From Nitrospinota bacterium (lineage in GTDB: Bacteria > JADFOP01): a stretch of DNA of 64,000 nt. This document shows, piece after piece, positions 4,165 through 50,840 of the stretch; the first letter of the stretch is position 1, and every line of letters begins with the position of its first letter. The stretch covers positions 20,691-84,690 of the forward strand of contig JADFOP010000001.1 of the NCBI GenBank assembly GCA_022562795.1, given 5' to 3'. The notes under the pieces are model-generated. The model saw nothing but the letters and a program-made list of their open reading frames with translations, did no database searches and was not told where the DNA came from. A program made the position numbers and the translations under genes.

Positions 4165-4171
4165 CTTCGCT

Positions 4172-4648
4172 CTAATCCACGAGATCGATCACGGCCTCCA
4201 TGATGTCGCCGAGAGCGTCGTCGGGGTATATGGACATGGGGCTGTCGGCGCGGGTCAGGAAGATGGAGCCGTCTTGAACTGTGGCGCGGAAGGTGAGTGT
4301 GCGTGTCTCCTCAGGGGGGTCGCCCTTGGTGATGGTTGCGTCGATGTAGCCCTCCTTAAGCTCCACGTTGGCCTGAACCGCATCCACGGTGATGATGAAG
4401 CTCTCATCACTGGTGCGCTCATAGGACTTACTCCTGCCGACGAGCTTGCTCTCGATGGTGAAGGCGATCCCGGCAGCGTTTTGCTTAAGGAGGTTGAAGA
4501 TGTCGTTGAAGGCCATCTGGGAAAAGTGCTTCTTGACGAAGGTATCGCCGGCGGCTAGCTCGGCTTCCCTCTGCTCCTGGGGCATGGTGTAGAGCTTCTT
4601 ATCAAGAATCTGCTTGAGCCGGTCGAGAAATTTCTCACTCATGGGCAA
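4172..4648 (-). CDS. hypothetical protein (lower-GC islet)
   Basis: 158-aa ORF with a clean stop, no recognisable motif; GC lower than flanks. Confidence 0.45.
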   Translation of the reverse strand: MPMSEKFLDRLKQILDKKLYTMPQEQREAELAAGDTFVKKHFSQMAFNDIFNLLKQNAAGIAFTIESKLVGRSKSYERTSDESFIITVDAVQANVELKEGYIDATITKGDPPEETRTLTFRATVQDGSIFLTRADSPMSIYPDDALGDIMEAVIDLVD

Positions 4649-4797
4649 TGTATCTTTTTAAGTGGACGAGAAGTGGGCGATGGCGCCCTTATACCACAAA
4701 AAGGACGCCAGGCGAAGGAAATCTTGGGACTCTTACCTCTCTTCTCGTCGGTTGACGGGGCATCGTCGGCGAGCCACCTTTCAAGCAGGAGGTTTCA

Positions 4798-5124
4798 ATG
4801 AGCCACGTTGAATACGATCTTCCAGAGACACTGCTTTCCATAGTTAGGGCCAACGGGGATTACAGTATCTTCCTGCTGGAGGGCGAGAGCCTCATCGTCT
4901 TTCCCGCCTGACCGGCTGGCGAGTGGAACATCGGCGAGTCTCGCCGATCGGCCCGGCACCGGCGGCTCACCGAGCAAGAGCTGGCCCACTACATGGCTCT
5001 TCTCGCCCCTGACCTATCCCCCGAAATTGCAGCCCACAACCTCTGGCGGAGCGTGGATGGTCTTGGCGAAGAGGGGTCGCGCAAAAAGGAGCGGGCCATC
5101 GCGCGCGCCATTCTCTCTTCGTAG
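4798..5124 (+). pseudogene. ORF interrupted by in-frame TGA (pseudogene or recoded small gene)
   Basis: ATG at 4798 reads 37 codons to TGA (4909-4911), then the same frame continues 70 codons to TAG at 5122-5124. Confidence 0.2.
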
Positions 5125-5280
5125 GCAGGAAGCCCTCTCTCCAAGCGTCAAAATATTGACACAGGGGAAGATAAGCTAGAATGGAGGGGTTGGGTTCTCA
5201 GTGACGGTAACGTAGGAGGGAAATGTTTTAGTGAGCGAAGCGAACAGCACACACATGCACTTTTCTTACACTTGGACATT

Positions 5281-6222
5281 TCACTCACGCAAAGACTGAA
5301 TATGGGGTTTTATAGCTTTTGAGAAGCGTTCCATAGTATCAATCATCGCATCCTGAATAGACACCCAACTGGTTTCGTCGTCTTTCAGGCCACCCTTTAG
5401 AATGAATGCCCGAATTCGCGAAGCACGCCTCTCGTCAAGGCGTTCCCAAAGGAGGGGACTACCAAAGTCTGCTTCTATCTCTTCCTTCTTAGAATGAAAG
5501 CGGTCAAAGATGCGTTTGTTCTGGTCGTTATCTCCCGTATCAATGTATAATTCGACAGCCGTCTTTTCCTTGAGCCAAACCCCATAGATAAAACTTAACC
5601 CGGCCTTGCCCGCCCCAGCGCTAATCCAATTGCCCGTACCCGGAGAAATGCTGGCATGAAGCGTAACACCCTTTTCTATTGCCCGGTCCAGGAGTTGTTT
5701 CCAAAATTGCTTGCGAAGTTTATGCCTTTCTGCGAGTTCCTTCTTATCTCCCCCTATTTCCTTTGCCTCTTCACTGGGAGCGACGATGACTGTGAAGAAA
5801 GGCGCTGGGAGGGAATCGCCAATACTATAAGCCGCCAAACGGACGAGGTAAAAAGCAATGTCTACTGGGGTCGCCTCGTTGAGCCATGCAACAGACCTAA
5901 TGTGCTCAGGACGTGGTTCACTCGTTATCCAGATGGCGGTCTTCGCTTCAAGGTTAGTAAGATAGGTCAGCACCTTTCCGAGATGGTCGTGATCTGTTCT
6001 TTCGAGTTGGTTCTCTATAATAACGAGATTTCCGTCACCATCCTCGGCGACGAGATCAACCTGAAACGGTCCAGCTTTCTTTCCTCGCTGCACTGCGGTG
6101 AGGGATATGTCCAGAACATCTTCTAGTGCATCAATATTGTTCTCTAGCCAAGCAGAAAAGTCGCGCTCCTCGTGCTTCCATAATTCACGTAGTTGAATAC
6201 TTTCGAGTTTGCCTATAGACAT
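5281..6222 (-). CDS. PD-(D/E)xK (NucS-like) endonuclease-fold domain + DUF4268 protein
   Basis: N-terminal VDLVAEDGDGNLVIIENQLERTD (D...E-x-Q/K nuclease-fold core); C-terminal W...ELYIDTGDNDQNKRIFD typical of DUF4268; low GC. Confidence 0.55.
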   Translation of the reverse strand: MSIGKLESIQLRELWKHEERDFSAWLENNIDALEDVLDISLTAVQRGKKAGPFQVDLVAEDGDGNLVIIENQLERTDHDHLGKVLTYLTNLEAKTAIWITSEPRPEHIRSVAWLNEATPVDIAFYLVRLAAYSIGDSLPAPFFTVIVAPSEEAKEIGGDKKELAERHKLRKQFWKQLLDRAIEKGVTLHASISPGTGNWISAGAGKAGLSFIYGVWLKEKTAVELYIDTGDNDQNKRIFDRFHSKKEEIEADFGSPLLWERLDERRASRIRAFILKGGLKDDETSWVSIQDAMIDTMERFSKAIKPHIQSLRE

Positions 6223-39358: not shown

Positions 39359-40009
39359 ATGATGACGCCCAAGGACGAGCCCCCAATGGCATACCATCCA
39401 TTTGAACAACCAGGTCGGCCCATTACGCTGGGCGCACATCTGGAGAGCGCGCCTCACCTGGCCGAGGGTCCTCCTGCCTGCCCCCTTTGTAGGACGGTCA
39501 TTGACCTTGAGGCGCTCGAGCACTCCGTAAAGGCCAGGCGTAGTCGAGCCTCTCCCGATGAACCGATCACCTACCACCTCTCTTGCTCAATGCCCTGCTT
39601 CAACGAGGGCTGCCCGGTCTACGTTACGCTGGAGGTCACCCTCTCCGATGAGGAATACGACGCCTGGGGCCAGCTGCAAAACAAGCGGCTAGACTACACT
39701 CTCTTTCGCGACGGCCGCCCCATTACCATCGAAGCCGAAGCCGACGCATCGACAACGGCTCCGCCTCCCTGCCGCTGCCCGGCCTGTAAGTGCGAGCTCG
39801 ATCTTGCGAGCCTCATCCCGCAGTCGGAGATCCTCATCTCAGGCGCCCCCATACCGCAATCGGAAGGGCCCCCTCAAAACCGGGTGACAGCCTACACGCG
39901 CTGCCCCCAGTGTGGCATAAACTTGACGTGCGCCTGCTTCGTCCCTAACGAGGAGCTCGGCGACCTGCGGCCCCCCGGCTCACCCGGTCCGGGAGATCAC
40001 TCTCAGTAG
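39359..40009 (+). CDS. cysteine-rich hypothetical protein (multiple CxxC)
   Basis: CPLC, CSMPC...C, CRCPACKC, CPQCGINLTCAC clusters. Confidence 0.4.
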   Translation: MMTPKDEPPMAYHPFEQPGRPITLGAHLESAPHLAEGPPACPLCRTVIDLEALEHSVKARRSRASPDEPITYHLSCSMPCFNEGCPVYVTLEVTLSDEEYDAWGQLQNKRLDYTLFRDGRPITIEAEADASTTAPPPCRCPACKCELDLASLIPQSEILISGAPIPQSEGPPQNRVTAYTRCPQCGINLTCACFVPNEELGDLRPPGSPGPGDHSQ

Positions 40010-40818
40010 ACCTCGCAGGCCACCCCTGTGCTCTCTTGACACCAACCGGCTATGGCGTCGAGACGGTCCCTAGGGACTATCTTTAGTTGAGTGTCGGCGG
40101 GAATACGGTCCAGCGTGTAAAGCTGGACGGCGAGGGGACGAATCTGCTCCACCTTATCAATCCAGGCGGCAACAATATCGTCGGTGGTGTTGTCGACCCG
40201 CCCCTGGACGAACATGCTCTGCACTATGCAGTCGGTCAGGCCGGAAATGTGGGCGATCATCCGTTGGAGGTCGAAGGGACGGTGGGGTAGATTGACAGCT
40301 TGGATGGTCTCCGGGTCGCCGGCGTCAAGCTTCACCTGCCTTTCATCCAGGCGATTGAGCGCCTCGAGGACTTCGGGGCGATGGATGGTCGAGGCACTGG
40401 TGAGTATCGAGAGCTTTACCTCCGGCGCCAGGCGGTCTCGGACGGCGGCCACAACGTCAACGAGCTCGGAGAACTCGGGGTGGAGGGTCGGCTCGCCGTT
40501 GCCCGCAAAGGTGAGGCTGTCGATGCGCGTTCCGTCGGCCGCCAGCCCCTCGAGGGCGTCTTCCAGGGCCGCACCGACCGCCTCGACGGTCGGGAAGAGC
40601 TCGGCCGGAGCCTCACCGACATCGCCCACGTAGAATCCTGTCCAGCCAAACTGGCAGTAGGGACAATTAAAGGAGCATAGTTTGACGTCGAGCGGCAGGG
40701 GGTTAATGCCCAGCGAGGCCCCCAAGCGCCGGGAACGCACGGGCCCGTAGATCAAGGTGGGAAAGAGGTTCCTCTGAATTAGAGAGGAGCCCTGTTGGGC
40801 CGGAAACCTTGGGTCCAT
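40003..40818 (-). CDS. radical SAM protein (COG0731-like)
   Basis: CSFNCPYC (Cx3Cx2C) preceded by YGPVRSRRLGASLGINPLP. Confidence 0.7.
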   Translation of the reverse strand: MDPRFPAQQGSSLIQRNLFPTLIYGPVRSRRLGASLGINPLPLDVKLCSFNCPYCQFGWTGFYVGDVGEAPAELFPTVEAVGAALEDALEGLAADGTRIDSLTFAGNGEPTLHPEFSELVDVVAAVRDRLAPEVKLSILTSASTIHRPEVLEALNRLDERQVKLDAGDPETIQAVNLPHRPFDLQRMIAHISGLTDCIVQSMFVQGRVDNTTDDIVAAWIDKVEQIRPLAVQLYTLDRIPADTQLKIVPRDRLDAIAGWCQESTGVACEVY

Positions 40819-41365
40819 AGGTGCCTACTCCCATTCCACGCAGATAGTGCCATCCATCTTACACGACTGGCATCTGATTCAAAGGGTAATTATCCCACCA
40901 AAATAATCAAGATGAGAAGGGCTTTTTCCTCTCGATCCTTGATTTTTCCAATTAGGCTCCCATATTGGAATAGAATACATAACGTTGTTTTAGCAGCAAA
41001 CCAATAAGGTGTTAAGTTATGAAGAGTTACGAGGAATGTTTTGGTACGCAGACCCCACATGCGCTCCGCTTCTCTGATGGGGCCTGCATCGTGGTCTGGG
41101 CTCCCAATGACGAGCTCAGCGACCTGTCGAGCCTTGATAAGCTGGGCCAAAAGTGTCTCATGTGCAAAGATGAATACTTGTGTTTCGAGCTCTCGCGTTG
41201 CCGAGACTTCATGACGCGGCAAGAAGTGCAGGTAGCTTAAGACGTACCGCAACTTTTCTCTCTCCATAGCTCCTTTTCCTTCAATTCCATCGCAGTAAAG
41301 CACAGATTTTGGTATAATACTCTCATTCTCATCAGCCGCTCTAACTGTCAGGTCTTCCCAGGCAT

Positions 41366-41941
41366 GTGTCGCGGGGACCAACGATGGCCTCTATTTTGGG
41401 TTCAGTGCTTTTCTATCTTATTGTTACCGTGGCTCTGCTGATCATGATCCTGTACGTCCTCCCCGTGGCAGGCGCCTTCTTCTTCACCGGCGGGAGCACC
41501 TTCGTTCCTACAAGCAAGCAAAAGATTGAGAAGGTCCTGGACCTTGTTCCCATGGCCCCAGGGGCGTTGGTGATTGATTTGGGATGTGGCGACGGGCGAT
41601 TTCTCTTGGCAGCCGAGCGGCGCTACGATGTGGAGGCCGTAGGGTATGATATTAATTTGACGGCCTACCTCCTCGCCCGGCTGAACATCCTGTTGCATCG
41701 AGCTCGGGCGCGTGTTTACCTCAAGAACTTTCGAAAAGTAGACCTGGGCCAGGCTGATTACATCTTCTGCTACCTCTTTCCCGACGTGCTTCCAGCCCTG
41801 AAGCGTAAATTTGACGCAGAGCTGAAGGCCGGTTGTGTGGTGGTCTCTTGTGACTACCTAATTGAGGAATGGAGGGAGCCGGAGGTCGTCTCCTACCCGG
41901 TGAATAACAAAGAGGAAAAGATATACATCTATCGCGTTTGA
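41366..41941 (+). CDS. membrane-anchored class I SAM-dependent methyltransferase
   Basis: N-terminal TM helix; VIDLGCGDGRF motif I. Confidence 0.55.
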   Translation: MSRGPTMASILGSVLFYLIVTVALLIMILYVLPVAGAFFFTGGSTFVPTSKQKIEKVLDLVPMAPGALVIDLGCGDGRFLLAAERRYDVEAVGYDINLTAYLLARLNILLHRARARVYLKNFRKVDLGQADYIFCYLFPDVLPALKRKFDAELKAGCVVVSCDYLIEEWREPEVVSYPVNNKEEKIYIYRV

Positions 41942-42219
41942 GAGTCCGAGCTGGAGTTGGCGAGGGTGGAATTGGGAGGCTCACGGACCTCAAGAAGCTT
42001 GTTAGGAGGGCCGTAACTCATTGGTCCAGGTGGTGGGAAACCCTTCCGAGTTTCCCCTCATGCCAACGCCTCCATGCGTAATTCGTCGTATTCGTCCAGT
42101 AATAAAATAGTAATCTGGGTGGTCGGAGGCAGCCCCAAAGCGCCGGATACTTTATAATCCATTGAATATCTTAACGTTAGAAAGAGTACGAAACATAAAA
42201 CAACTTTTTATAATTTCCC

Positions 42220-42249
42220 TTGACACAATCCTGAAACCGGTGGTATTAT
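42220..42249 (+). promoter_or_regulatory. sigma70-like promoter (TTGACA-18-TATTAT) ahead of a ~320-nt leader of the OFA transporter gene
   Basis: Consensus -35 at 42220-42225, -10 at 42244-42249, in an AT-rich intergenic region. Confidence 0.35.
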
Positions 42250-42564
42250 TGGAGCCCTAAGCATCCGATGCATAATCTATCCAAACTTGTGTGCCAAGTC
42301 TACGGCTAGCACCTTTAGAATGGGGTTTTTAGCTACACCAATATAGGGGGGGGTGATAAATAGTTTGTATTGGAGGAAGCCCCCCACAGCCTATTGTGAG
42401 GTTTGGTGGGCTTCGTAGCTCATAAGGGATACTCGAGTTGAAAGGGGGTGAAGAAGCAACAGAAGAAGCAACAAAGGAGAGAATAGTAGTTCAGAAGTGC
42501 TTTTTATGTAGTAGATGAAGTATTCCATGCACTCCACGAAAGAAGTTCTAGAAGGAGCGTCATA

Positions 42565-43821
42565 ATGAATCGTTGGATGATCATGTTTACCGGAACTGCG
42601 ATTAATATCATGCTGGGAGTACTTTACTCCTGGAGCATTTTCGTGGTTCCACTTTCCAAGAAGTTTGGATGGACGCGGGCCCAGCTGAGCTGGCCGTTCA
42701 CCATGTCAATCTTCACCTTCGCTCTAGTGATGGTGGCGGCCGGGAAGTGGCAGGATAAAGTCGGACCCCGGATCGTCTGCGTGACGGGCGGTATCATCAT
42801 GGGGATCGGCTTCATCCTGACGAGCTTCGTCACGTCGTTTCCCGCCCTCGTGGTGACCTTCGGGGTCATCGGCGGGGCCGGGGTGGCCTGTAGCTACGTG
42901 ACGCCCGTGGTTACATCCATGAAATGGTTCCCAGACAAGAAGGGGTTGGCCGCCGGCATCACAGTCTTTGGATTCGGATTCGGCGCCTTCGTCTTCACGC
43001 CAATCGCGGTGGTCCTCATCAAGAATGTGGGCATCATGAACTCCTTCTTGTACCTGGGCTTCATCTGGATAATCGGCGTCGGCGGTTTGGGCATGCTCCT
43101 GCGAGTCCCTCCCCCGGGCTATAAGCCTGAGGGCTGGGATCCTCCGGCCCCGGCGGTCGGAGTCACGGACGCGGTTGCGGTGGACTGGGAGACTAGGGAT
43201 ATGATTAAGACCCCGACCTTCTGGTTGCTGTGGCTTGCCTTCCTCGGCAACGCCAGCGTGGGCATCATGGTGATTTCGATGATCGCGCCCTACGCCAAGA
43301 CGTTGGGAATCAGCGCGGAGACGGCGGCCTTCTTCATCGGCTACCTCTCCATCACCAACGGCTTCGGACGCATCATCGCCGGGTGGCTCTCCGACGCCAT
43401 CGGGCGGACCAGGGCCATGGTGCTCATCTTCTCCATCACGACGGTGAACGTATTCCTGCTGCCGATTATGGCGAAGACAGCCGCCGGATATGCAGTCGGC
43501 CTGATGATCTGCGGCGCTTCCTACGGGGCGAACTTCGCCCTCTTCCCCGCGGCCACGGGGGCGTTCTTTGGCTCGAAGAACCTCGGGGGTAACTACGCCG
43601 CCGTCTTCACCGCATGGGGTGTCGGAGGCGTCATTGGACCGCAGTCCAAGGCCGCGATGTTGCGGAAGTACTCCGCCGGCCTCTCAGGCGAGGAGCTTGT
43701 GAGCGCGAGGCTCCAGGCTTACAAGATTGCCTTCTACATTGGGACGGCCATGGGAATTCTGGCCGTGGTCACGGCGGTCCTCTGCAAGCCTCCAGGGGCG
43801 CCACCGGAGCCGGCTAAGTAA
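42565..43821 (+). CDS. MFS transporter, oxalate/formate antiporter (OFA) family
   Basis: 12-TM topology; OFA-like N-terminus MNRWMIMFTGTAINIMLGVLYSWSIF; AAGGAG RBS. Confidence 0.8.
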   Translation: MNRWMIMFTGTAINIMLGVLYSWSIFVVPLSKKFGWTRAQLSWPFTMSIFTFALVMVAAGKWQDKVGPRIVCVTGGIIMGIGFILTSFVTSFPALVVTFGVIGGAGVACSYVTPVVTSMKWFPDKKGLAAGITVFGFGFGAFVFTPIAVVLIKNVGIMNSFLYLGFIWIIGVGGLGMLLRVPPPGYKPEGWDPPAPAVGVTDAVAVDWETRDMIKTPTFWLLWLAFLGNASVGIMVISMIAPYAKTLGISAETAAFFIGYLSITNGFGRIIAGWLSDAIGRTRAMVLIFSITTVNVFLLPIMAKTAAGYAVGLMICGASYGANFALFPAATGAFFGSKNLGGNYAAVFTAWGVGGVIGPQSKAAMLRKYSAGLSGEELVSARLQAYKIAFYIGTAMGILAVVTAVLCKPPGAPPEPAK

Positions 43822-43858
43822 GCCAGACGCCACAACGGTGGTTTGTTCAGCAGTACCA

Positions 43859-43898
43859 CGAGGAGGGGTTTCCGGTGGGGACCCCTCCTCGTCTTTTA
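43859..43898 (+). terminator. rho-independent terminator after the MFS gene
   Basis: CGAGGAGGGG...CCCCTCCTCG 10-bp stem followed by TCTTTTAT. Confidence 0.55.
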
Positions 43899-43954: not shown

Positions 43955-43983
43955 TTGAAGCTCTCGCCGTGACTTTGTATATT
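43955..43983 (+). promoter_or_regulatory. sigma70-like promoter of the E2-JAB-E1-Ubl operon (TTGAAG-17-TATATT)
   Basis: -35 at 43955-43960, 17-nt spacer, -10 at 43978-43983, ~35 nt upstream of ATG 44017. Confidence 0.4.
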
Positions 43984-44016
43984 GGTAGATACCTTTAACC
44001 TTAGGGCGCGGGACGA

Positions 44017-45156
44017 ATGAAGTCTTCCAGCCCACTTCTTAAGCGAGGTGAGCGCCATCCCCCACCGGAGGTGGCGGATGTGATGGGAGAATACGCCGAC
44101 GCCCTCGGAATGGAGGCCGGCTTCGACGATCCACCGAAGGGGTGGCGCATCTCCCCGCGCGACGGCCGCCTCTGGTGTCTCAACGATGCGGCTCCAATCC
44201 CTCCCACCATCTTTGGCCGCCTACCCGTTTTGCCTCGCGTGCAGCGGGGCGTTATTTTCGGCCATTCTTTGGCCAAGGACGCCTGCACCGCCATTGGCGA
44301 GACCCGCCGCCCAGGCAGGGGGATGCTCATCCGGGATGACGACCGCCTGGCGGTGGCCGAAGTTAAGCGGACGGCCTGTTACCTCTCCTTCGATCTGCTC
44401 TCGTGGCCTGGCCCCATAGCAGCCATCGTGTTACGCAAGGTGCTCGACGCCGCATTGGCCGCCTGCGGAGATAAGCTTGTGGCCAGCAGTCCCCTATCGA
44501 CCGATGCCCGGCAGCTAGCGATTAAGGAGCTTGCCCATCGAACCATGTCGGCCGACGCCGACTGGGCCCGACTGCAGGAGAGGGAGGCCCGTCAAGCCCT
44601 CATGGAGGCCGGCACAAACCACGCTTCCAGCCGCCGTATCCATCTAGAGGAAGAGATCTCCTCTCTGGAAGACAACCTGGCCGAGTTCTCCCGACGCATC
44701 ACGGTTGACAGCCGCCGTCTGTTCAAGTACCAGCGGGAGTTGGTGTCCCTCGAAGGCGAAGAGGGGGGCGATCCGGTTGATTTCGCCGAAGAATACGACC
44801 GGATTCGGGCCCATCCCCTCGTCGAGGAGCTTACAGCCCAAGACGACCGGCTCACGGTCACCACCCTTCCCCTGACCGCAACATTTGAGGACGAGCTCAT
44901 CAACCTCGGACGGTTTGAAATCAAAATGCACCTCAACGGAGACCTCAGGATCACCAACCTCACACGGCGGATGTGGACCTACGATCACCCTCACATTCGC
45001 GAAGGGGTCCCGTGCCTCGGGAACATCCAGGAGGGTGTGGCGAAGCTCATCGGCACCTATCAGCTTGCCGTCGTAATTCAGGTTCTCATCGACTTTCTAC
45101 AGCTCGTCAACCCCAAGGAGTGGATCGTCTCTGCCCAGTACTGGCGGGATCCCTAA
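44017..45156 (+). CDS. E2 (UBC)-like ubiquitin-conjugating enzyme homolog with large N-terminal extension
   Basis: C-terminal YDHPHIREGVPCLGNI matches the UBC HPN...Cys active-site signature; alternative start ATG 44083 after GGAGGTGG. Confidence 0.55.
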   Translation: MKSSSPLLKRGERHPPPEVADVMGEYADALGMEAGFDDPPKGWRISPRDGRLWCLNDAAPIPPTIFGRLPVLPRVQRGVIFGHSLAKDACTAIGETRRPGRGMLIRDDDRLAVAEVKRTACYLSFDLLSWPGPIAAIVLRKVLDAALAACGDKLVASSPLSTDARQLAIKELAHRTMSADADWARLQEREARQALMEAGTNHASSRRIHLEEEISSLEDNLAEFSRRITVDSRRLFKYQRELVSLEGEEGGDPVDFAEEYDRIRAHPLVEELTAQDDRLTVTTLPLTATFEDELINLGRFEIKMHLNGDLRITNLTRRMWTYDHPHIREGVPCLGNIQEGVAKLIGTYQLAVVIQVLIDFLQLVNPKEWIVSAQYWRDP

Positions 45157-45170
45157 GGGGGGCCTCTCAC

Positions 45171-45830
45171 ATGATTGAGCGTGTTCGCGTAAGCCCCGAT
45201 GCCTGGAGCCGGATGCGGCTCTACGTCGAGTGCTGTGACACCGAAATTGGGGGCCTTGGGCTTGGGACCTTGGAAGGTTCAATATTCCACCTCGAAGAGG
45301 TGGTCCTCATCGAGCAGGATGTCACGGAAATGGATACCCTCCTTTCGCCCGACGGGCTTGCCCGCTTCCTCCACGAGCTCGTGGAGGGAGGCGGGAGCCC
45401 GGCTCGGGTCAAAGTCTGGTGGCACAGCCACGTCAACCACGCGCTTAAGTGGAGCAGGCAGGACGAGGAGACCATCCGCCAGCTCAATCACGACTATCTA
45501 CTCTCCCTGATAGGCAATAAGAGCGGCCAATGGCTATGCCGACTCGACCTCGTCGGGCCTCCAGCCCGAACCGTCGAGCCGGTGCCTCTGGGGCCGACCG
45601 AGGTGGCCGGAGCGGTCGATCCGGCCTTGCGGGCCTCCATCGAGCGGGAGGTCGCCGAAAAAGTAAAGTCGTGGGAGCTAGTGCGCATTCCGGGTCAGGG
45701 AGGGTTTTTTTTCGGCACCGAGATCGTGACGAGCGACTATTCCTACGCCCTTGAAAGCTACGGCTCCTTTCTTCTTCCGTGGGAGGGAAGCCACGGCGAC
45801 CCCGCCTCCGGGCCCGAAACGGAGGAATAG
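45171..45830 (+). CDS. JAB/MPN (JAMM) metallopeptidase, deubiquitinase-like
   Basis: Exact JAMM motif WWHSHVNHALKWSRQD (HxHx7Sx2D) with upstream Glu (CCDTEIGGLG). Confidence 0.7.
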   Translation: MIERVRVSPDAWSRMRLYVECCDTEIGGLGLGTLEGSIFHLEEVVLIEQDVTEMDTLLSPDGLARFLHELVEGGGSPARVKVWWHSHVNHALKWSRQDEETIRQLNHDYLLSLIGNKSGQWLCRLDLVGPPARTVEPVPLGPTEVAGAVDPALRASIEREVAEKVKSWELVRIPGQGGFFFGTEIVTSDYSYALESYGSFLLPWEGSHGDPASGPETEE

Positions 45831-45839
45831 GCGGCGGCA

Positions 45840-46487
45840 ATGGATTACTTCCGGCAGATGGACCTCGTTGATCAGGAGGCCCTCGACATCCCGATGGTGG
45901 TTATCGGGTGCGGGGGGATTGGATCGCTGACCACGCTTGCGCTCGCCAAGATGGGCTGTCACAATCTGACGGTCTACGACGACGACATCATTGAGCCTCA
46001 CAACCTCCCAAACCAGGTCTACCGGATGGAGGACACGGGGAAGAAGAAGGTGGATGCCATCGGAGACATCCTGCACTCGTACACCGGAGCACGGATAACC
46101 GTCCGGCCCGAGCGAATAGCCGGCCAAAAGCTTCGGGGCGTCGTCATAAGTGGTGTGGACACCATGGCCGACCGGGTCCGGATCTGGCTCGATTCGGTCA
46201 AGTTAAATCCGGCCGTGCCCCTTTACATCGACGCCCGGATGGGGGGCGAGGTGACCCGGATATATTCCGTTCGCCCCGTCGACCCGTTCCATATCCAGTC
46301 GTACGAGGCGACGCTCTACAGCGACACCGAGGCCGATCCGCTGACCTGCACCGGACGGACAATTATCTACAACACCTTCGCGATTGCTGGTATCATAACC
46401 AGCCAGGTGAAGAAATTTCTCATGGGGGAGCCGTATCACCGGGAGATTCTCTTTGATCTCCACACTTTGACGCTCAACCACAATTGA
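45840..46487 (+). CDS. E1-like ThiF/MoeB-family adenylyltransferase (Ubl-activating)
   Basis: VVIGCGGIGS Rossmann motif, DDDIIEPHNLPNQ, RMGGE, catalytic Cys candidate in LTCTGRT. Confidence 0.75.
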   Translation: MDYFRQMDLVDQEALDIPMVVIGCGGIGSLTTLALAKMGCHNLTVYDDDIIEPHNLPNQVYRMEDTGKKKVDAIGDILHSYTGARITVRPERIAGQKLRGVVISGVDTMADRVRIWLDSVKLNPAVPLYIDARMGGEVTRIYSVRPVDPFHIQSYEATLYSDTEADPLTCTGRTIIYNTFAIAGIITSQVKKFLMGEPYHREILFDLHTLTLNHN

Positions 46488-46515
46488 CCCACCACCAGCA
46501 GAAAGGGGGTTCCTT

Positions 46516-46746
46516 ATGAAGCGGTTGACTGTCGACGAGACTAACATCGAGGTTCGGATGGTCTCGATGGGCCGGGGCGTCCAGAAGTTCGTCCGGGAGA
46601 AGGGTATCAACGTTGGTGATTTCCTCGACCAGATGGGTGTCGACCAAACCATGGACTTCCGTGTCAACGGCGCCCTGTCGGAACGGTCCCGGCCGCTGGA
46701 GCACGGCGACCAGGTGCTCATCGTCCCGAAAATCAAGGGCGGTTGA
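46516..46746 (+). CDS. ubiquitin-like beta-grasp protein ending in Gly-Gly (ThiS/MoaD/Ub-like)
   Basis: 76 aa, C-terminus ...LIVPKIKGG*; beta-grasp-like hydrophobic pattern; AAAGGGGG RBS; last gene of the operon. Confidence 0.65.
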   Translation: MKRLTVDETNIEVRMVSMGRGVQKFVREKGINVGDFLDQMGVDQTMDFRVNGALSERSRPLEHGDQVLIVPKIKGG

Positions 46747-46773
46747 TTAACTTCCAGCCCACACACCCATCAG

Positions 46774-46810
46774 CAGAGGCGGTCTGAACGAGAAGGTTGG
46801 GCCGCCTCTG
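46774..46810. terminator. possible bidirectional terminator hairpin between convergent Ubl and yjbQ genes
   Basis: CAGAGGCGG...CCGCCTCTG 9-bp stem (19-nt loop) then TCCTTCGTC. Confidence 0.3.
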
Positions 46811-46847: not shown

Positions 46848-47273
46848 TCAACCCCCAAGCACCTTGATCACGACCCGCTTGCGTCGCCGTCCGTCGAATT
46901 CGGCGTAGTAGACCTGCTGCCACGGGCCCAGGTCGAGGTGGCCGTCGGTCACAGGTACCAGGACTTGATGATGGACCAGGATGCTCTTTAGGTGCGCGTC
47001 GCCGTTGTCTTCACCGGTTCGGTGGTGGGCGTAGTCCCGGCCGAAAGGGGCGAGTGACTCGAGCATTTCATCGAGGTCTTGGATGAAGCCGGACTCGGCA
47101 TCGTTCACGTAGACGGCCGCAGTAATGTGCATTGCGCTCACAAACACGAGCCCCTCCTGGATGCCACTCGCGGCCACAGCAGCCTCGACCTGATCGGTTA
47201 TATTTACGTAATCCCGCCTTTTGTCGATCTCAAACCAGAGATATTCCGTATGGGCGCGCATAGCTCCCTCCAC
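46848..47273 (-). CDS. YjbQ/UPF0047 family protein
   Basis: [22 protein letters not shown] and [15 protein letters not shown] motifs. Confidence 0.75.
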
Positions 47274-49577: not shown

Positions 49578-50840
49578 GTGTTAAACCGCGAGGAATATGA
49601 ACGGCTAGAAGCCGACCGACTGGCGCCCTATGCGATGAAAAGCGCCGCCTCCCGGGGGCGCCGCTATGAAGAAGCGGAGCACCCCGTGCGCAGCGTCTAC
49701 CAGCGCGACCGGGATCGAATCATACATAGCGCGGCCTTCCGCCGCCTGGAGTACAAGACCCAGGTTTTCGTCAACCACGAGGGTGATTACTACCGGACCC
49801 GTCTTACCCACACCCTGGAGGTCGCCCAAATCACCCGCACCATAGCCCGCATCTTGAGGCTCAACGAAGACCTGGCCGAGACAATCGCCATCGCTCACGA
49901 CCTCGGCCACACCCCCTTCGGGCACTCGGGCGAGGTGGTCATGAACGAGCTCATGGCCGACCACGGCGGGTTCGAGCACAACCGCCAAAGCCTGCGCGTC
50001 ATCGAGGAATTGGAGACGCGATACCCTGACTTTCCGGGGCTCAACCTAACCTACGAGGTCCGAGAGGGTATCGCTAAGCACAGCTCTGAGTACGACGACA
50101 GCCAGCCTGGAGGATACGACCCCGACTGCCTCGCTACGCTGGAGGCGCGGATCGTCGACCTGGCCGATGAGATAGCCTACAACAACCACGACATCGACGA
50201 CGGGCTGACTTCACGTATGCTTGAGCCGGAGCCGCTCGAGGCCGTCACCCTCTGGAGGGAGCATTTCGCGCGCATCCGCCAGCGTTACCCTGGACATCCG
50301 TTCGGCCTCTGGAAGCACCAGACGGTCCGCCATATCATTAACGAGCAGGTGACCGACCTGGTAGAGACCCTTCACCAGCGCCTGGCCGACGAACAGATCG
50401 GCTCCGTGGAGCAGGCCCGCGACCCCCGCCATGCCGACCTCGTCTCCTTCAGCCCGGAGATGTCCAAGAAGAACCGAGAGCTGAAGGACTTCCTCATGGC
50501 CCATCTCTACCAGCACTCCCGGGTGATCCGGATGGAGGCCAAGGCCCGAAGAATTCTCACCGACCTCTTTACCGCATACACCGAAAACCCCCGCCAATTG
50601 CCTCCCCCGTCCTACGCCGTCATTGAAGATGCCTGGGAAGAAAACCAGCGTGTGTCGGCCGAGCACGCCGCCCAAGGCCTTACCGGAGAGGTTCTCGCAA
50701 GGGCGTTACAAGCCGTCCAGACTTACTGGGCTAACGAGGGAAGAATAAAGCGGGCCATCTGCGACTACATCGCCGGCATGACGGACCGCTTCGCCTTGGA
50801 CGAGCACAAAAAGCTCTTCGACCCTCACGAGCGGGTTTAA
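49578..50840 (+). CDS. dgt: dGTPase-family HD-domain triphosphohydrolase (Dgt-like)
   Basis: RDRDRIIHSAAFRRLEYKTQVF, HTLEVAQI, HDLGHTPFGH motifs. Confidence 0.85.
   Translation: MLNREEYERLEADRLAPYAMKSAASRGRRYEEAEHPVRSVYQRDRDRIIHSAAFRRLEYKTQVFVNHEGDYYRTRLTHTLEVAQITRTIARILRLNEDLAETIAIAHDLGHTPFGHSGEVVMNELMADHGGFEHNRQSLRVIEELETRYPDFPGLNLTYEVREGIAKHSSEYDDSQPGGYDPDCLATLEARIVDLADEIAYNNHDIDDGLTSRMLEPEPLEAVTLWREHFARIRQRYPGHPFGLWKHQTVRHIINEQVTDLVETLHQRLADEQIGSVEQARDPRHADLVSFSPEMSKKNRELKDFLMAHLYQHSRVIRMEAKARRILTDLFTAYTENPRQLPPPSYAVIEDAWEENQRVSAEHAAQGLTGEVLARALQAVQTYWANEGRIKRAICDYIAGMTDRFALDEHKKLFDPHERV

What the first reader, a model, noticed from the sequence alone, without database searches (positions are those of the whole stretch)
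43955..46810. Complete E2 - JAB - E1 - Ubl(GG) operon: a bacterial ubiquitin-like conjugation module, candidate Bil-like antiphage system
Four co-oriented, tightly spaced genes (gaps 14, 9 and 28 nt) lie between a TTGAAG-17-TATATT promoter and a hairpin. (1) A 379-aa protein ends in YDHPHIREGVPCLGNI, the UBC/E2 HPN...Cys signature. (2) A 219-aa protein carries an exact JAMM motif HSHVNHALKWSRQD. (3) A 215-aa ThiF/MoeB E1 has GCGGIGS and a conserved Cys. (4) A 76-aa beta-grasp protein ends ...KIKGG. E1+Ubl alone would suggest sulfur-carrier chemistry. The E2 homolog and dedicated JAB isopeptidase point instead to protein conjugation, as in Bil (BilABCD) and related Ubl antiphage operons. Gene order and the long E2 N-terminal extension differ from the canonical Bil description.
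Basis: partly seen in the sequence, partly recalled or inferred. Interest (0 to 1): 0.9.

Follow-up and report, generated by a model that had tools for sequence, protein, structure and literature searches.

The report
New bacterial E2–JAB–E1–Ubl conjugation operon
This four-gene operon encodes a complete ubiquitin-like protein-tagging kit built around a large E2 family that the four profile libraries searched (Pfam, NCBIfam, PADLOC, PHROGs) do not recognise, and it sits in a stable core-genome position, so it looks like a new non-mobile relative of the bacterial ubiquitination systems known from phage defence, not a Bil system.

Summary
Four co-oriented genes lie at 44017-46746 with gaps of 14, 9 and 28 nt, and every quoted motif is present.

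No Pfam, NCBIfam, PADLOC or PHROG model detects this E2. Yet a profile search finds 2,585 cluster representatives.

Across about 115 loci the E2 travels with a 215-aa single-domain ThiF-type E1 (Cys170 conserved), a SAMP2-like Ubl ending PKI[KR]GG, and/or an intact JAMM peptidase.

It is not a Bil, Bub or CBASS member. The E1 lacks the IAD-AAD-CYS architecture, there is no DUF6527 protease, no gene fusion and no CD-NTase.

Context argues against a mobile defence island:
- Synteny is conserved in related Nitrospinae-like genomes.
- Cassette and flanking genes diverge at similar rates.
- Neighbours are mostly housekeeping genes, apart from one Dgt-type dGTPase that matches a PADLOC model.
- The E2 has no match in 50,697 phage or 72,556 plasmid records.

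Best reading: an E3-independent E1-to-E2 Ubl conjugation system with a JAMM deconjugase. Targets and biological role are unknown.

The parts
43858..43892 (+). Terminator-like hairpin plus T-run after the upstream MFS gene. It marks the 5' boundary of the operon.
   Evidence: 16 pairs (10 G-C), followed by CTTTTATGTG.
43955..43983 (+). Sigma-70-like promoter candidate, TTGAAG-17-TATATT.
   Evidence: 9 of 12 matches. One site found against 0.9 expected by chance, so the position is right but the statistics are weak.
44017..45156 (+). E2-like protein (E2L), 379 aa. It has an orphan N-terminal beta-rich domain (about residues 12-130), long helices or a coiled coil (about 131-250), and a UBC-fold domain (about 251-379).
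   Evidence: full model pLDDT 78.7, with helices 132-154, 162-223 and 230-246. No Pfam, PADLOC, NCBIfam or PHROG hit. The N-terminal domain has no PDB or Pfam relative.
44767..45153 (+). UBC/E2-fold catalytic domain of E2L.
44986..45015 (+). E2 active-site stretch: H324-P325-H326 (the HPN equivalent) through Cys333 (codon 45013-45015).
   Evidence: Invariant in alignment A1. P325, H326 and C333 are invariant in 32 diverse members, and H324 is conserved in at least 90%. HPH aligns on UbcH7 HPN and the Cys on Cys86.
45171..45830 (+). JAB/MPN+ (JAMM) metallopeptidase, 219 aa. Catalytic residues are E25 (45243-45245) and H85-x-H87-x7-S95-x2-D98 (45423-45464).
   Evidence: sequence. Prok-JAB E 0.016, below threshold; best PDB relatives are BRCC36 and an Rpn11-like protein. 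E...HxH...S..D is at least 95% conserved in 50 homologs.
45840..46487 (+). Minimal single-domain ThiF/MoeB-type E1, 215 aa. Features: R5-Q6, GCGGIGS (45906-45926) and Cys170 (46347-46349).
   Evidence: ThiF PF00899, E 5e-18 (65.5 bits, cut-off 28.1); closest solved relatives are PaaA, ThiF, MccB and MoeB. R5, Q6, the G-loop and C170 are at least 95% conserved in 37 homologs; phrog_15670, E 8e-24.
46516..46746 (+). Ubiquitin-like beta-grasp protein, 76 aa, ending in mature KIKGG (G75-G76 at 46738-46743).
   Evidence: ThiS, 25 bits against a cut-off of 22.5; the best PDB match is archaeal SAMP2, aligned through the terminal GG; the tail PKI[KR]GG is conserved across the family.
46773..46810 (+). 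GC-rich hairpin between the convergent Ubl and YjbQ genes. Possible terminator, but without a T-run.
   Evidence: dG -31 kcal/mol, z -1.95.

Best explanation
The operon encodes a self-contained ubiquitin-like protein conjugation and deconjugation system built around a previously unprofiled E2 family.

**Proposed mechanism**
1. The 215-aa ThiF-type E1, presumably a homodimer like ThiF and MoeB, binds the 76-aa Ubl and adenylates its terminal Gly76.
2. E1 Cys170, on the crossover loop, takes the Ubl as a thioester.
3. The Ubl passes to Cys333 of the E2-like protein. That residue sits just after an H-P-H flap in a UBC fold.
4. No E3 is encoded. The E2's own N-terminal domain and long coiled coil probably select or position substrates, and the E2 transfers the Ubl directly to a target amine.
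5. The JAMM peptidase reverses the conjugates. In this clade the Ubl is already mature, so processing is unnecessary. In relatives with C-terminal Ubl tails the peptidase probably also matures the Ubl.

**Shown here:** the folds and families of all four proteins, conservation of every catalytic residue, and co-occurrence of the genes.

**Inferred:** adenylation, both thioesters, direct E2-to-target transfer, and the role of the N-terminal domain.

**Biological role:** most likely a chromosomally inherited regulatory or proteostasis-type modification in a Nitrospinae-like bacterium, not mobile phage defence. The targets are unknown.
For: **E2**
- UBC fold by Foldseek (UBE2L6 and UbcH7, probability 0.97-0.99).
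- The model is confident: pLDDT 93.6.
- The family profile hits only UbcH7 in the PDB, with HPH on HPN and the Cys on Cys86.
- H-P-H...C is invariant or nearly so and present in 145 of the 159 proteins held at that point.

**E1:** ThiF above the Pfam threshold. R5, Q6, the G-loop and Cys170 are at least 95% conserved.

**JAB:** exact JAMM motif, at least 95% conserved in 50 homologs. Nearest solved relatives are the deubiquitinases BRCC36 and Rpn11-like.

**Ubl:** ThiS above threshold, SAMP2-like to the terminal GG, with a conserved PKI[KR]GG tail.

**Gene linkage:** of 49 loci with enough flank, 31 have the E1 and 33 have the JAB next to the E2L. No other partner is universal.

**Non-mobile context**
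- Synteny from the radical SAM gene to the dGTPase is shared with L003 (Nitrospinae bacterium) and L001.
- Cassette identity to L003 is 76-87%, against 75-92% for flanking genes.
- No GC anomaly and no flanking repeats.
- No E2L hit in phages or plasmids.
Against: - No biochemistry: thioester formation and conjugation are inferred from homology alone.
- The E1 family has an invariant N-L-P-N-Q where ThiF and PaaA (aligned), and MoeB from my memory of its sequence, have N-x-x-R-Q. From my knowledge of the MoeB literature, that Arg binds ATP, so the adenylation chemistry may be atypical.
- A few family members lack the E2 Cys (Ser, Val or Arg instead).
- 17 of 49 informative loci show E2L plus JAB without a nearby E1 or Ubl, and 16 of 49 lack the JAB. 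The four-gene set is therefore not obligatory.
- A dGTPase with a strong PADLOC hit lies 2.8 kb downstream.
- One IMG/VR contig carries the full cassette. A conflict-related role is not excluded.
Confidence: 0.7

Rival explanations
1. It is a Bil-like antiphage defence system. [quoted passage not shown]
For: - It has the same four functional parts as BilABCD (PMC10557695).
- Some relatives have the exact Bil gene order, Ubl-E2-JAB-E1 (L059, L094, L103, L106, L131).
- A Dgt-family dGTPase 2.8 kb downstream hits PADLOC PDLC02374 at 3e-103.
- L002 carries the cassette among a PemK toxin, integrase fragments and a PLD nuclease.
- All experimentally characterised bacterial E1-E2 systems so far are immune (PMC11601596, PMC11601603).
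Against: - PADLOC finds no system. It gives only E1-domain matches to Cap2 models and a weak JAB match.
- The E1 is a 215-aa single domain, not IAD-AAD-CYS.
- The E2 matches no Prok-E2 model.
- The chromosomal position is conserved among housekeeping genes in three related genomes, and divergence matches that of the neighbours.
- Recurrent neighbours are YjbQ, MFS, DUF2203, LipA and FdhD, not defence genes.
- The E2 family gave no hit in 50,697 phage and 72,556 plasmid records.
- The dGTPase is syntenic in all three genomes, which fits a housekeeping Dgt.
Confidence: 0.15
2. It is primarily a sulfur-carrier system. The E1 adenylates the Ubl for thiocarboxylate formation, as in ThiS-ThiF, MoaD-MoeB or TtuB-TtuC. 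Cys333 of the E2-like protein acts as a persulfide or sulfur relay, or conjugation is only a side activity as with SAMPs and Urm1.
For: - The E1 and Ubl score best against ThiF and ThiS/MoaD models. The Ubl is closest to SAMP2.
- YjbQ/UPF0047 is convergent with the Ubl gene in two lineages. From my own knowledge, some annotation pipelines name this family a secondary thiamine-phosphate synthase.
- In the JAB-less lineage, FdhD (a sulfurtransferase) is two genes away, and ORFs I read as IscS and IscA from their N-terminal sequences (not Pfam-scanned) lie about 6 kb away.
Against: - All NCBIfam ThiF, MoeB and ThiS equivalog scores are far below their cut-offs.
- The E1 has no rhodanese domain. 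It also lacks the Zn-binding CxxC pairs, which is seen directly in the sequence.
- There is no ThiG, ThiH, MoaE, desulfurase or FdhD in the window.
- A UBC-fold partner with an HPN-like flap and Cys, plus a JAMM isopeptidase, is unexplained by sulfur chemistry alone. These are the most tightly linked genes.
Confidence: 0.1
3. The E2-like protein is a non-catalytic UBC/RWD-type scaffold, or it modifies only itself or its own partners (auto-regulation, as in CBASS priming), and is not a general conjugating enzyme.
For: - A few family members lack the Cys.
- Long coiled coils suggest an assembly role.
Against: - The Cys and H-P-H are invariant in the window's clade and in 32 diverse members. That is not expected for a pure scaffold.
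- The E1 Cys and the Ubl GG are also conserved.
Confidence: 0.05

Closest known systems
BilABCD (Type I/II Bil; operon classes 6d/6c of Iyer et al. 2006)
   Same: Separate Ubl, E2, JAB peptidase and E1 genes with no E3. The E2 is presumed to recognise targets directly. Some relatives of the window's cassette share the Ubl-E2-JAB-E1 gene order.
   Different: - The Bil E1 is multidomain, IAD-AAD-CYS with a PF14459 N-domain (PMC10557695). Here the E1 is a 215-aa single adenylation domain with its Cys on the crossover loop.
- 6d E2s lack the classical His (PMC1779556). Here H-P-H is retained.
- Here the E2 carries a 250-residue N-terminal domain plus coiled coil.
- The window's gene order is E2-JAB-E1-Ubl.
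- The context is core genome, not a defence island.
Bub (6E/DUF6527) operons
   Same: Bacterial E1, E2, Ubl and peptidase modules that conjugate proteins.
   Different: Bub uses Ser and Tyr oxyester intermediates, gene fusions (Ubl-E2, JAB-E1 or E2-E1) and a DUF6527 serine protease (PMC11601596). Here catalytic Cys residues are conserved, the genes are separate, and there is no DUF6527.
Type II CBASS Cap2/Cap3
   Different: Cap2 is an E2-E1 fusion that conjugates a CD-NTase, not a Ubl. No CD-NTase or effector gene is present here.
Archaeal SAMP/UbaA/HvJAMM1 and Thermus TtuB/TtuC (described from my own knowledge, plus PMC4443979)
   Same: A small ThiS/MoaD-type Ubl with a GG terminus, a single-domain E1, and a JAMM deconjugase. 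The Ubl is closest to SAMP2. These systems are chromosomal and non-immune.
   Different: Those systems are E2-independent and double as sulfur carriers. Here a dedicated UBC-fold E2 is the signature gene.
Eukaryote-like E1/E2/RING-E3 operon of Caldiarchaeum (PMC5654768, PMC3082918)
   Same: A canonical-type E2 active site (HPN-like flap plus Cys), with a Ubl, an E1 and an Rpn11-like JAMM in one operon.
   Different: Those E2s are recognisable UQ_con members and come with a RING E3. Here no Pfam E2 model matches and there is no RING.
ThiS-ThiF / MoaD-MoeB sulfur-carrier pairs
   Same: The E1 and Ubl folds, and the likely adenylation chemistry.
   Different: Those pairs have no E2 and no JAB, and they sit with cofactor-biosynthesis genes. 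All NCBIfam equivalog cut-offs are missed by a wide margin.

Membership tests
UBC/E2 superfamily (for the 379-aa protein) | UBC fold: an N-terminal helix, a beta-meander, a flap, then C-terminal helices. | tested here: met
UBC/E2 superfamily (for the 379-aa protein) | HPN-type flap followed by a catalytic Cys. | tested here: met
   H324-P325-H326...C333 is invariant. It aligns on UbcH7 H-P-N and Cys86. The Asn is replaced by His.
UBC/E2 superfamily (for the 379-aa protein) | Recognition by curated E2 profiles (UQ_con, Prok-E2_A to E, RWD, UEV). | tested here: not met
   No hit for the protein or for any of 32 family members at E up to 5. This is a family that curated profiles do not cover.
UBC/E2 superfamily (for the 379-aa protein) | Formation of a Ubl~Cys thioester. 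| not testable with these tools
   Needs biochemistry.
BilABCD | E1 with IAD-AAD-CYS architecture and a PF14459 N-terminal domain (PMC10557695). | tested here: not met
   The E1 is 215 aa with a single ThiF domain covering residues 17-197 and no other Pfam hit.
BilABCD | BilB/CEHH-type E2. | tested here: not met
   No Prok-E2 Pfam or PADLOC match. The classical His is retained, unlike 6d E2s (PMC1779556). I did not make a direct comparison with BilB sequences.
BilABCD | Gene order Ubl-E2-DUB-E1. | tested here: not met
   The window's order is E2-DUB-E1-Ubl. A minority of relatives do have the Bil order.
BilABCD | Defence-island context or CapH/CapP regulators. | tested here: not met
   Neighbours are a radical SAM enzyme, a methyltransferase, MFS, YjbQ, a Zn-ribbon protein, FG-GAP, Dgt and LarA-N. 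The only PADLOC hit among neighbours is the Dgt. Synteny is conserved.
BilABCD | Antiphage activity through Ubl conjugation to a phage protein. | not testable with these tools
   Needs a phage challenge experiment.
Bub (6E/DUF6527) | DUF6527/PF20137 serine protease in the operon. | tested here: not met
   No such hit in the operon or among the neighbours scanned.
Bub (6E/DUF6527) | E1 and E2 lack a catalytic Cys (Tyr and Ser oxyesters); Ubl-E2, JAB-E1 or E2-E1 fusions. | tested here: not met
   Cys170 (E1) and Cys333 (E2) are conserved. There are four separate genes.
Type II CBASS | CD-NTase plus a Cap2 E2-E1 fusion plus an effector. | tested here: not met
   PADLOC gives only partial E1-domain matches. 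No CD-NTase or effector is found among the neighbours.
ThiF/MoeB E1 superfamily (215-aa protein) | Rossmann adenylation domain with a GxGxxG loop; curated Pfam threshold. | tested here: met
   PF00899 at 65.5 bits against a cut-off of 28.1. The G-loop and R5-Q6 are conserved.
ThiF/MoeB E1 superfamily (215-aa protein) | Conserved Arg of the N-x-x-R-Q ATP-binding motif. | tested here: not met
   The family has an invariant N-L-P-N-Q, aligned against ThiF NLQRQ and PaaA NINRQ.
JAMM/MPN+ metallopeptidases (219-aa protein) | E...H-x-H-x7-S-x2-D zinc site. | tested here: met
   E25, H85, H87, S95 and D98 are present. The motif is at least 95% conserved in 50 homologs.
JAMM/MPN+ metallopeptidases (219-aa protein) | Curated profile threshold (Prok-JAB). 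| tested here: inconclusive
   15.5 bits against a cut-off of 25. PADLOC JAB E 0.004. BRCC36 E 0.008.
ThiS/MoaD-type Ubl (76-aa protein) | Beta-grasp profile and a C-terminal Gly-Gly. | tested here: met
   PF02597 at 25 bits against a cut-off of 22.5. It aligns with SAMP2 through the terminal GG. I did not model the fold itself.
Sulfur-carrier pathways (thiamine, Moco, thio-tRNA) | Operon or neighbourhood with ThiG/ThiH/MoaE/TtuA, a rhodanese or a cysteine desulfurase. | tested here: not met
   None among the 10 neighbours scanned. No FdhD, IscS or IscA homolog in the 64-kb window. NCBIfam equivalog cut-offs are missed.

The most novel reading that the evidence does not exclude
This is the founding example of a widespread, vertically inherited, non-immune bacterial E1-E2 ubiquitin-like conjugation pathway.
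- It has a eukaryote-type E2 active site (an HPN-like flap plus Cys), a minimal homodimer-type E1, a SAMP-like Ubl and a JAMM deubiquitinase.
- It modifies host proteins as part of normal physiology in uncultured Nitrospinae-like and Acidobacteriota lineages.
- It has been missed because no profile library recognises its E2.
Probability: 0.35. Interest if true: 0.85.

Novelty: new variant of a known kind. Interest (0 to 1): 0.75.

Why it matters
All bacterial E1-E2 conjugation pathways characterised so far (Type II CBASS, Bil, Bub) are sparsely distributed immune systems (PMC11601596, PMC11601603).

This operon would add a fourth, architecturally distinct class:
- Its E2 family is large: 2,585 representatives at 50% identity.
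- That E2 is invisible to Pfam, NCBIfam, PADLOC and PHROGs.
- It retains the classical His-Pro-x...Cys geometry.
- It pairs with the simplest possible E1.
- It is embedded in core-genome synteny.

That makes two questions directly testable. Do bacteria use E2-dependent Ubl tagging outside immunity? What did the minimal ancestor of the ubiquitin cascade (single-domain E1 plus UBC E2, no E3) look like?

It also gives annotation pipelines and defence-finder tools a concrete new family to model.

Tried and rejected
2. The search for related loci with the diverse alignment A2 failed because no stretch was conserved enough. I replaced it with a hand-made degenerate DNA pattern for DHPH-x5-PCLGN. This biases the loci towards that motif variant.
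3. My iterated JAB HMM became contaminated by out-of-frame ORFs in high-GC DNA. I rebuilt it without iteration and checked hits by JAMM motif and non-overlap.
4. N-terminal domain of the E2: no PDB-sequence or Pfam relative. Its role remains unassigned.
5. No Rfam family and no flanking direct or inverted repeats suggesting a mobile element.
6. Literature searches found Bil, Bub, CBASS and archaeal systems, but no description of this family.
7. I considered and rejected the PRTRC system: the NCBIfam PRTRC_ThiF score is 34 against a cut-off of 145.
8. Minus-strand ORFs overlapping the operon (for example 46203-46766 and 45678-46127) are treated as high-GC artefacts. Only the plus-strand frames have conserved homologs.

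Full report
**1.

Searches show four co-oriented plus-strand ORFs:
- 44017-45156 (379 aa)
- 45171-45830 (219 aa from the ATG that follows an AAGGGGGG Shine-Dalgarno)
- 45840-46487 (215 aa)
- 46516-46746 (76 aa)

The gaps are 14, 9 and 28 nt. All quoted motifs are present: YDHPHIREGVPCLGNI near the C-terminus of protein 1, HSHVNHALKWSRQD in protein 2, GCGGIGS in protein 3, and a terminal KIKGG in protein 4.

The TTGAAG-17-TATATT site is at 43955-43983. One such site is expected by chance in this stretch, so it is plausible but not distinctive. A strong hairpin plus T-run at 43858-43892 ends the upstream MFS gene, so the operon is its own transcription unit. The downstream hairpin at 46773-46810 is stable (dG -31 kcal/mol, z -1.95) but has no T-run.

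No Rfam family and no flanking repeats are present. GC content (0.57-0.65) matches most of the surroundings, apart from a lower-GC stretch (0.44-0.55) about 1.4-3 kb upstream.

**2. Profile libraries recognise only half of the operon**

| Protein | Best library result |
|---|---|
| E1 | ThiF, PF00899, E 5e-18 |
| Ubl | ThiS, 25 bits against a cut-off of 22.5 |
| JAB | Prok-JAB, below threshold (E 0.016) |
| 379-aa "E2" | Nothing in Pfam, PADLOC, NCBIfam or PHROGs |

The E2 assignment was therefore the claim that most needed testing.

**3. The E2 call is confirmed**

A word-indexed search found only 11 homologs. Their alignment shows an extremely conserved C-terminal ~90 residues, with invariant D323-H324-P325-H326 and P332-C333-L334-G335-N336.

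An exhaustive profile search then found 2,585 cluster representatives (1,277 at E ≤ 1e-10). Most match only the coiled-coil plus C-terminal part. Of the 159 proteins held at that point, 145 carry [H/A/Q]-P-[H/N]-x(3-9)-C-x-G-[N/D]. A few have Ser, Val or Arg in place of the Cys.

Structure and profile evidence:
- Modelling residues 249-379 with a 32-sequence alignment of diverse members gave pLDDT 93.6 and pTM 0.88.
- The Foldseek top four hits are E2s.
- Independently, an HMM of the family hits only UbcH7/UBE2L3 among all PDB sequences (E 0.035). The family's H-P-H aligns on UbcH7 H-P-N, and its invariant Cys aligns on catalytic Cys86.
- None of the 32 members is recognised by any Pfam E2, RWD or UEV model.

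The protein is thus a genuine UBC-fold enzyme of a family that curated profiles do not cover. The oxyanion Asn of HPN is replaced by an invariant His.

The ~120-residue N-terminal domain has no detectable relative. It is optional in the family: short ~200-aa forms lack it, and one 1,072-aa protein appears by eye to repeat it several times.

**4. The partners are intact enzymes, and the linkage is family-wide**

I then scored neighbours with HMMs built from confirmed cassettes.

Among the 49 loci with at least 2.3 kb downstream (not de-replicated):

| Architecture | Loci |
|---|---|
| E2L-JAB only | 17 |
| E2L-E1-Ubl | 16 |
| JAB and E1 both present (13 of them also with a detected Ubl), in various orders including the window's E2L-JAB-E1-Ubl and the Bil-like Ubl-E2L-JAB-E1 | 15 |
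| E2L-JAB-Ubl | 1 |

Residue conservation:
- In 37 non-redundant E1s, R5, Q6, the G-loop and Cys170 are at least 95% conserved. From my recollection of the MoeB and ThiF sequences, Cys170 matches the MoeB C187 / ThiF C184 crossover-loop position. I did not align this here.
- The same E1 family has an invariant N-L-P-N-Q where ThiF and PaaA have N-x-x-R-Q.
- In 50 JABs, E...HxH...S..D is at least 95% conserved.
- Ubl tails are P-K-I-[K/R]-G-G. JAB-less cassettes mostly end at GG or GG+1 (19 of 22). JAB-containing ones have tails of up to 18 residues. The window's Ubl ends exactly at GG, so its JAB would act as a deconjugase, not a maturase.

Closest solved relatives:
- E1: PaaA, ThiF, MccB and MoeB.
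- JAB: BRCC36 and Rpn11-like deubiquitinases.
- Ubl: archaeal SAMP2.

Clustering 545 neighbouring ORFs across 65 locus clusters found no further universal partner. There is no E3, no effector and no regulator.

**5. Context points away from a mobile defence island**

- The closest genome hit is a Nitrospinae bacterium MAG (L003, E2L 77% identical).
- Window, L003 and L001 share the order radical SAM, methyltransferase, MFS | E2L-JAB-E1-Ubl | YjbQ, Zn-ribbon, FG-GAP, dGTPase.
- Cassette proteins are 76-87% identical to those of L003. The flanking genes are 75-92% identical. The cassette therefore shows no accelerated evolution.
- In a second, JAB-less lineage the cassette sits between LipA (Pfam-confirmed) with ORFs I read as Lpd and LipB, and YjbQ-PHP-FdhD.
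- In short-form loci it lies among catabolic genes.
- YjbQ, the OFA-like MFS and DUF2203 each recur in 6 of 65 locus clusters. This could be old synteny or a functional link.
- The E2L domain has no tblastn match in 50,697 phage records or 72,556 plasmids.

Points in favour of a conflict role:
- A Dgt-type dGTPase 2.8 kb downstream hits PADLOC's dGTPase model (3e-103).
- L002 sits near a PemK toxin, integrase fragments and a PLD nuclease.
- The E1 matches phrog_15670.
- One 105-kb IMG/VR contig carries a full cassette.

**6. Mechanism**

Best-supported model (confidence about 0.7):
1. The E1 adenylates Gly76 of the Ubl.
2. E1 Cys170 takes the Ubl as a thioester.
3. The Ubl is transferred to E2L Cys333.
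4. The E2L passes it directly to targets, which are selected by its own N-terminal domain and coiled coil.
5. The JAMM peptidase removes it.

Folds, catalytic-residue conservation and gene linkage are shown here. Every chemical step is inferred from the established mechanisms of the ThiF/E1, UBC and JAMM families.

Rivals:
- A Bil-like antiphage function (about 0.15).
- Sulfur-carrier or dual-function chemistry (about 0.10). This is supported only by the ThiS/ThiF-like scores, the YjbQ adjacency, and FdhD and Isc genes near some relatives. No such genes occur in the window.
- A non-catalytic or self-modifying scaffold (about 0.05).

**7. Comparison with known systems**

In outline it works like Bil: a separate Ubl, E2, JAB and E1, with no E3. 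It fails the membership tests for Bil, Bub and Type II CBASS:
- Bil requires an IAD-AAD-CYS E1 with PF14459, a BilB/CEHH-type E2, and defence-island context (PMC10557695).
- Bub requires a DUF6527 protease, oxyester Ser/Tyr chemistry and gene fusions (PMC11601596).
- Type II CBASS requires a CD-NTase and an E2-E1 fusion.

Its E1, Ubl and JAB resemble the E2-independent archaeal SAMP/UbaA/HvJAMM1 triad, to which a UBC E2 has been added. Unlike the 6d E2s of Iyer et al. (PMC1779556), it keeps the classical His.

Literature searches found no description of this family.

**8. Verdict**

The "Bil-like antiphage" label is not.

I rate this a new variant of a known kind: bacterial E1-E2-Ubl-DUB conjugation systems. 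It has a large, unprofiled E2 family and an unusual core-genome context. Interest 0.75.

Noticed in passing
L131 (IMGVR_UViG_3300037067_004901, 105.5-kb contig), 1944-5456: A low-GC putative viral contig carries a complete Ubl(68 aa, ends VKGN)-E2L(475 aa)-JAB(373 aa)-E1(217 aa) cassette. Its E2L has an extra Cys-rich, zinc-ribbon-like C-terminal tail. A 359-aa ORF next to the cassette looks, by eye, like a nicotinate phosphoribosyltransferase. No GenBank phage record has a homolog.
   Followed up: partly
window 49578-50840 (+): An HD-domain dGTPase (Dgt family) hits PADLOC's antiphage dGTPase model at E 3e-103. It is syntenic in L001 and L003, so it may simply be the housekeeping Dgt.
   Followed up: partly
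L025 4419-6473; L128 1422-6022; also L067 and L029: E2L-JAB-only loci have no E1 or Ubl within 4 kb. They are followed by two paralogous unknown ~270-aa proteins, an unknown ~108-aa protein, a ChlI-like AAA+ ATPase and a VWA protein. This may be a distinct variant system.
   Followed up: partly
JAB-less cassettes, e.g. L013, L024, L115 (Ubl ends KIKGGR), L004 (KIRGGC), L002 (KISGGG): In cassettes without a JAB the Ubl often carries exactly one residue after Gly-Gly. I could not identify which protease removes it, or whether the E1 tolerates it.
   Followed up: no
window 45996-46013 (E1 residues 53-58, HNLPNQ): The E1 family has an invariant N-L-P-N-Q where ThiF and PaaA have N-x-x-R-Q. From my knowledge of the MoeB literature, the Arg at this position binds ATP, and it is missing here.
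   Followed up: partly
window 46848-47273 (-) and 42565-43821 (+); L013, L024, L111, L115; L020, L025, L029, L044, L067: YjbQ/UPF0047 lies convergent to the Ubl gene in two lineages whose E2Ls are only 34-42% identical. An OFA-like MFS transporter flanks the E2L in the window's clade and in the E2L-JAB-only clade (E2L 27-30% identical). This is either ancient synteny or a functional link, such as target candidates.
   Followed up: partly
P0050 (1,072 aa): One family member appears, by eye, to carry about five tandem copies of the orphan N-terminal domain before the coiled coil and UBC domain. That would be consistent with a modular binding domain.
   Followed up: no
L002 5281-5559; L089 2471-2887 and relatives: A DUF433-like 92-aa gene (18.6 bits, below the Pfam cut-off) occupies the JAB slot in L002. 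A DUF2203 gene sits immediately upstream of the E2L in 6 locus clusters of the JAB-less type.
   Followed up: partly
window 39359-40009 (+): A 216-aa ORF with repeated Cys pairs (CPLC, CPVY, CRCPAC, CPQC) and no Pfam hit partly overlaps its neighbours. It may be a multi-zinc-ribbon protein.
   Followed up: no
window 40800-42600: GC drops to 0.44-0.55, against about 0.60-0.68 around it. The stretch spans a 163-aa ORF, the small methyltransferase gene and a ~600-nt ORF-poor gap upstream of the MFS gene.
   Followed up: no
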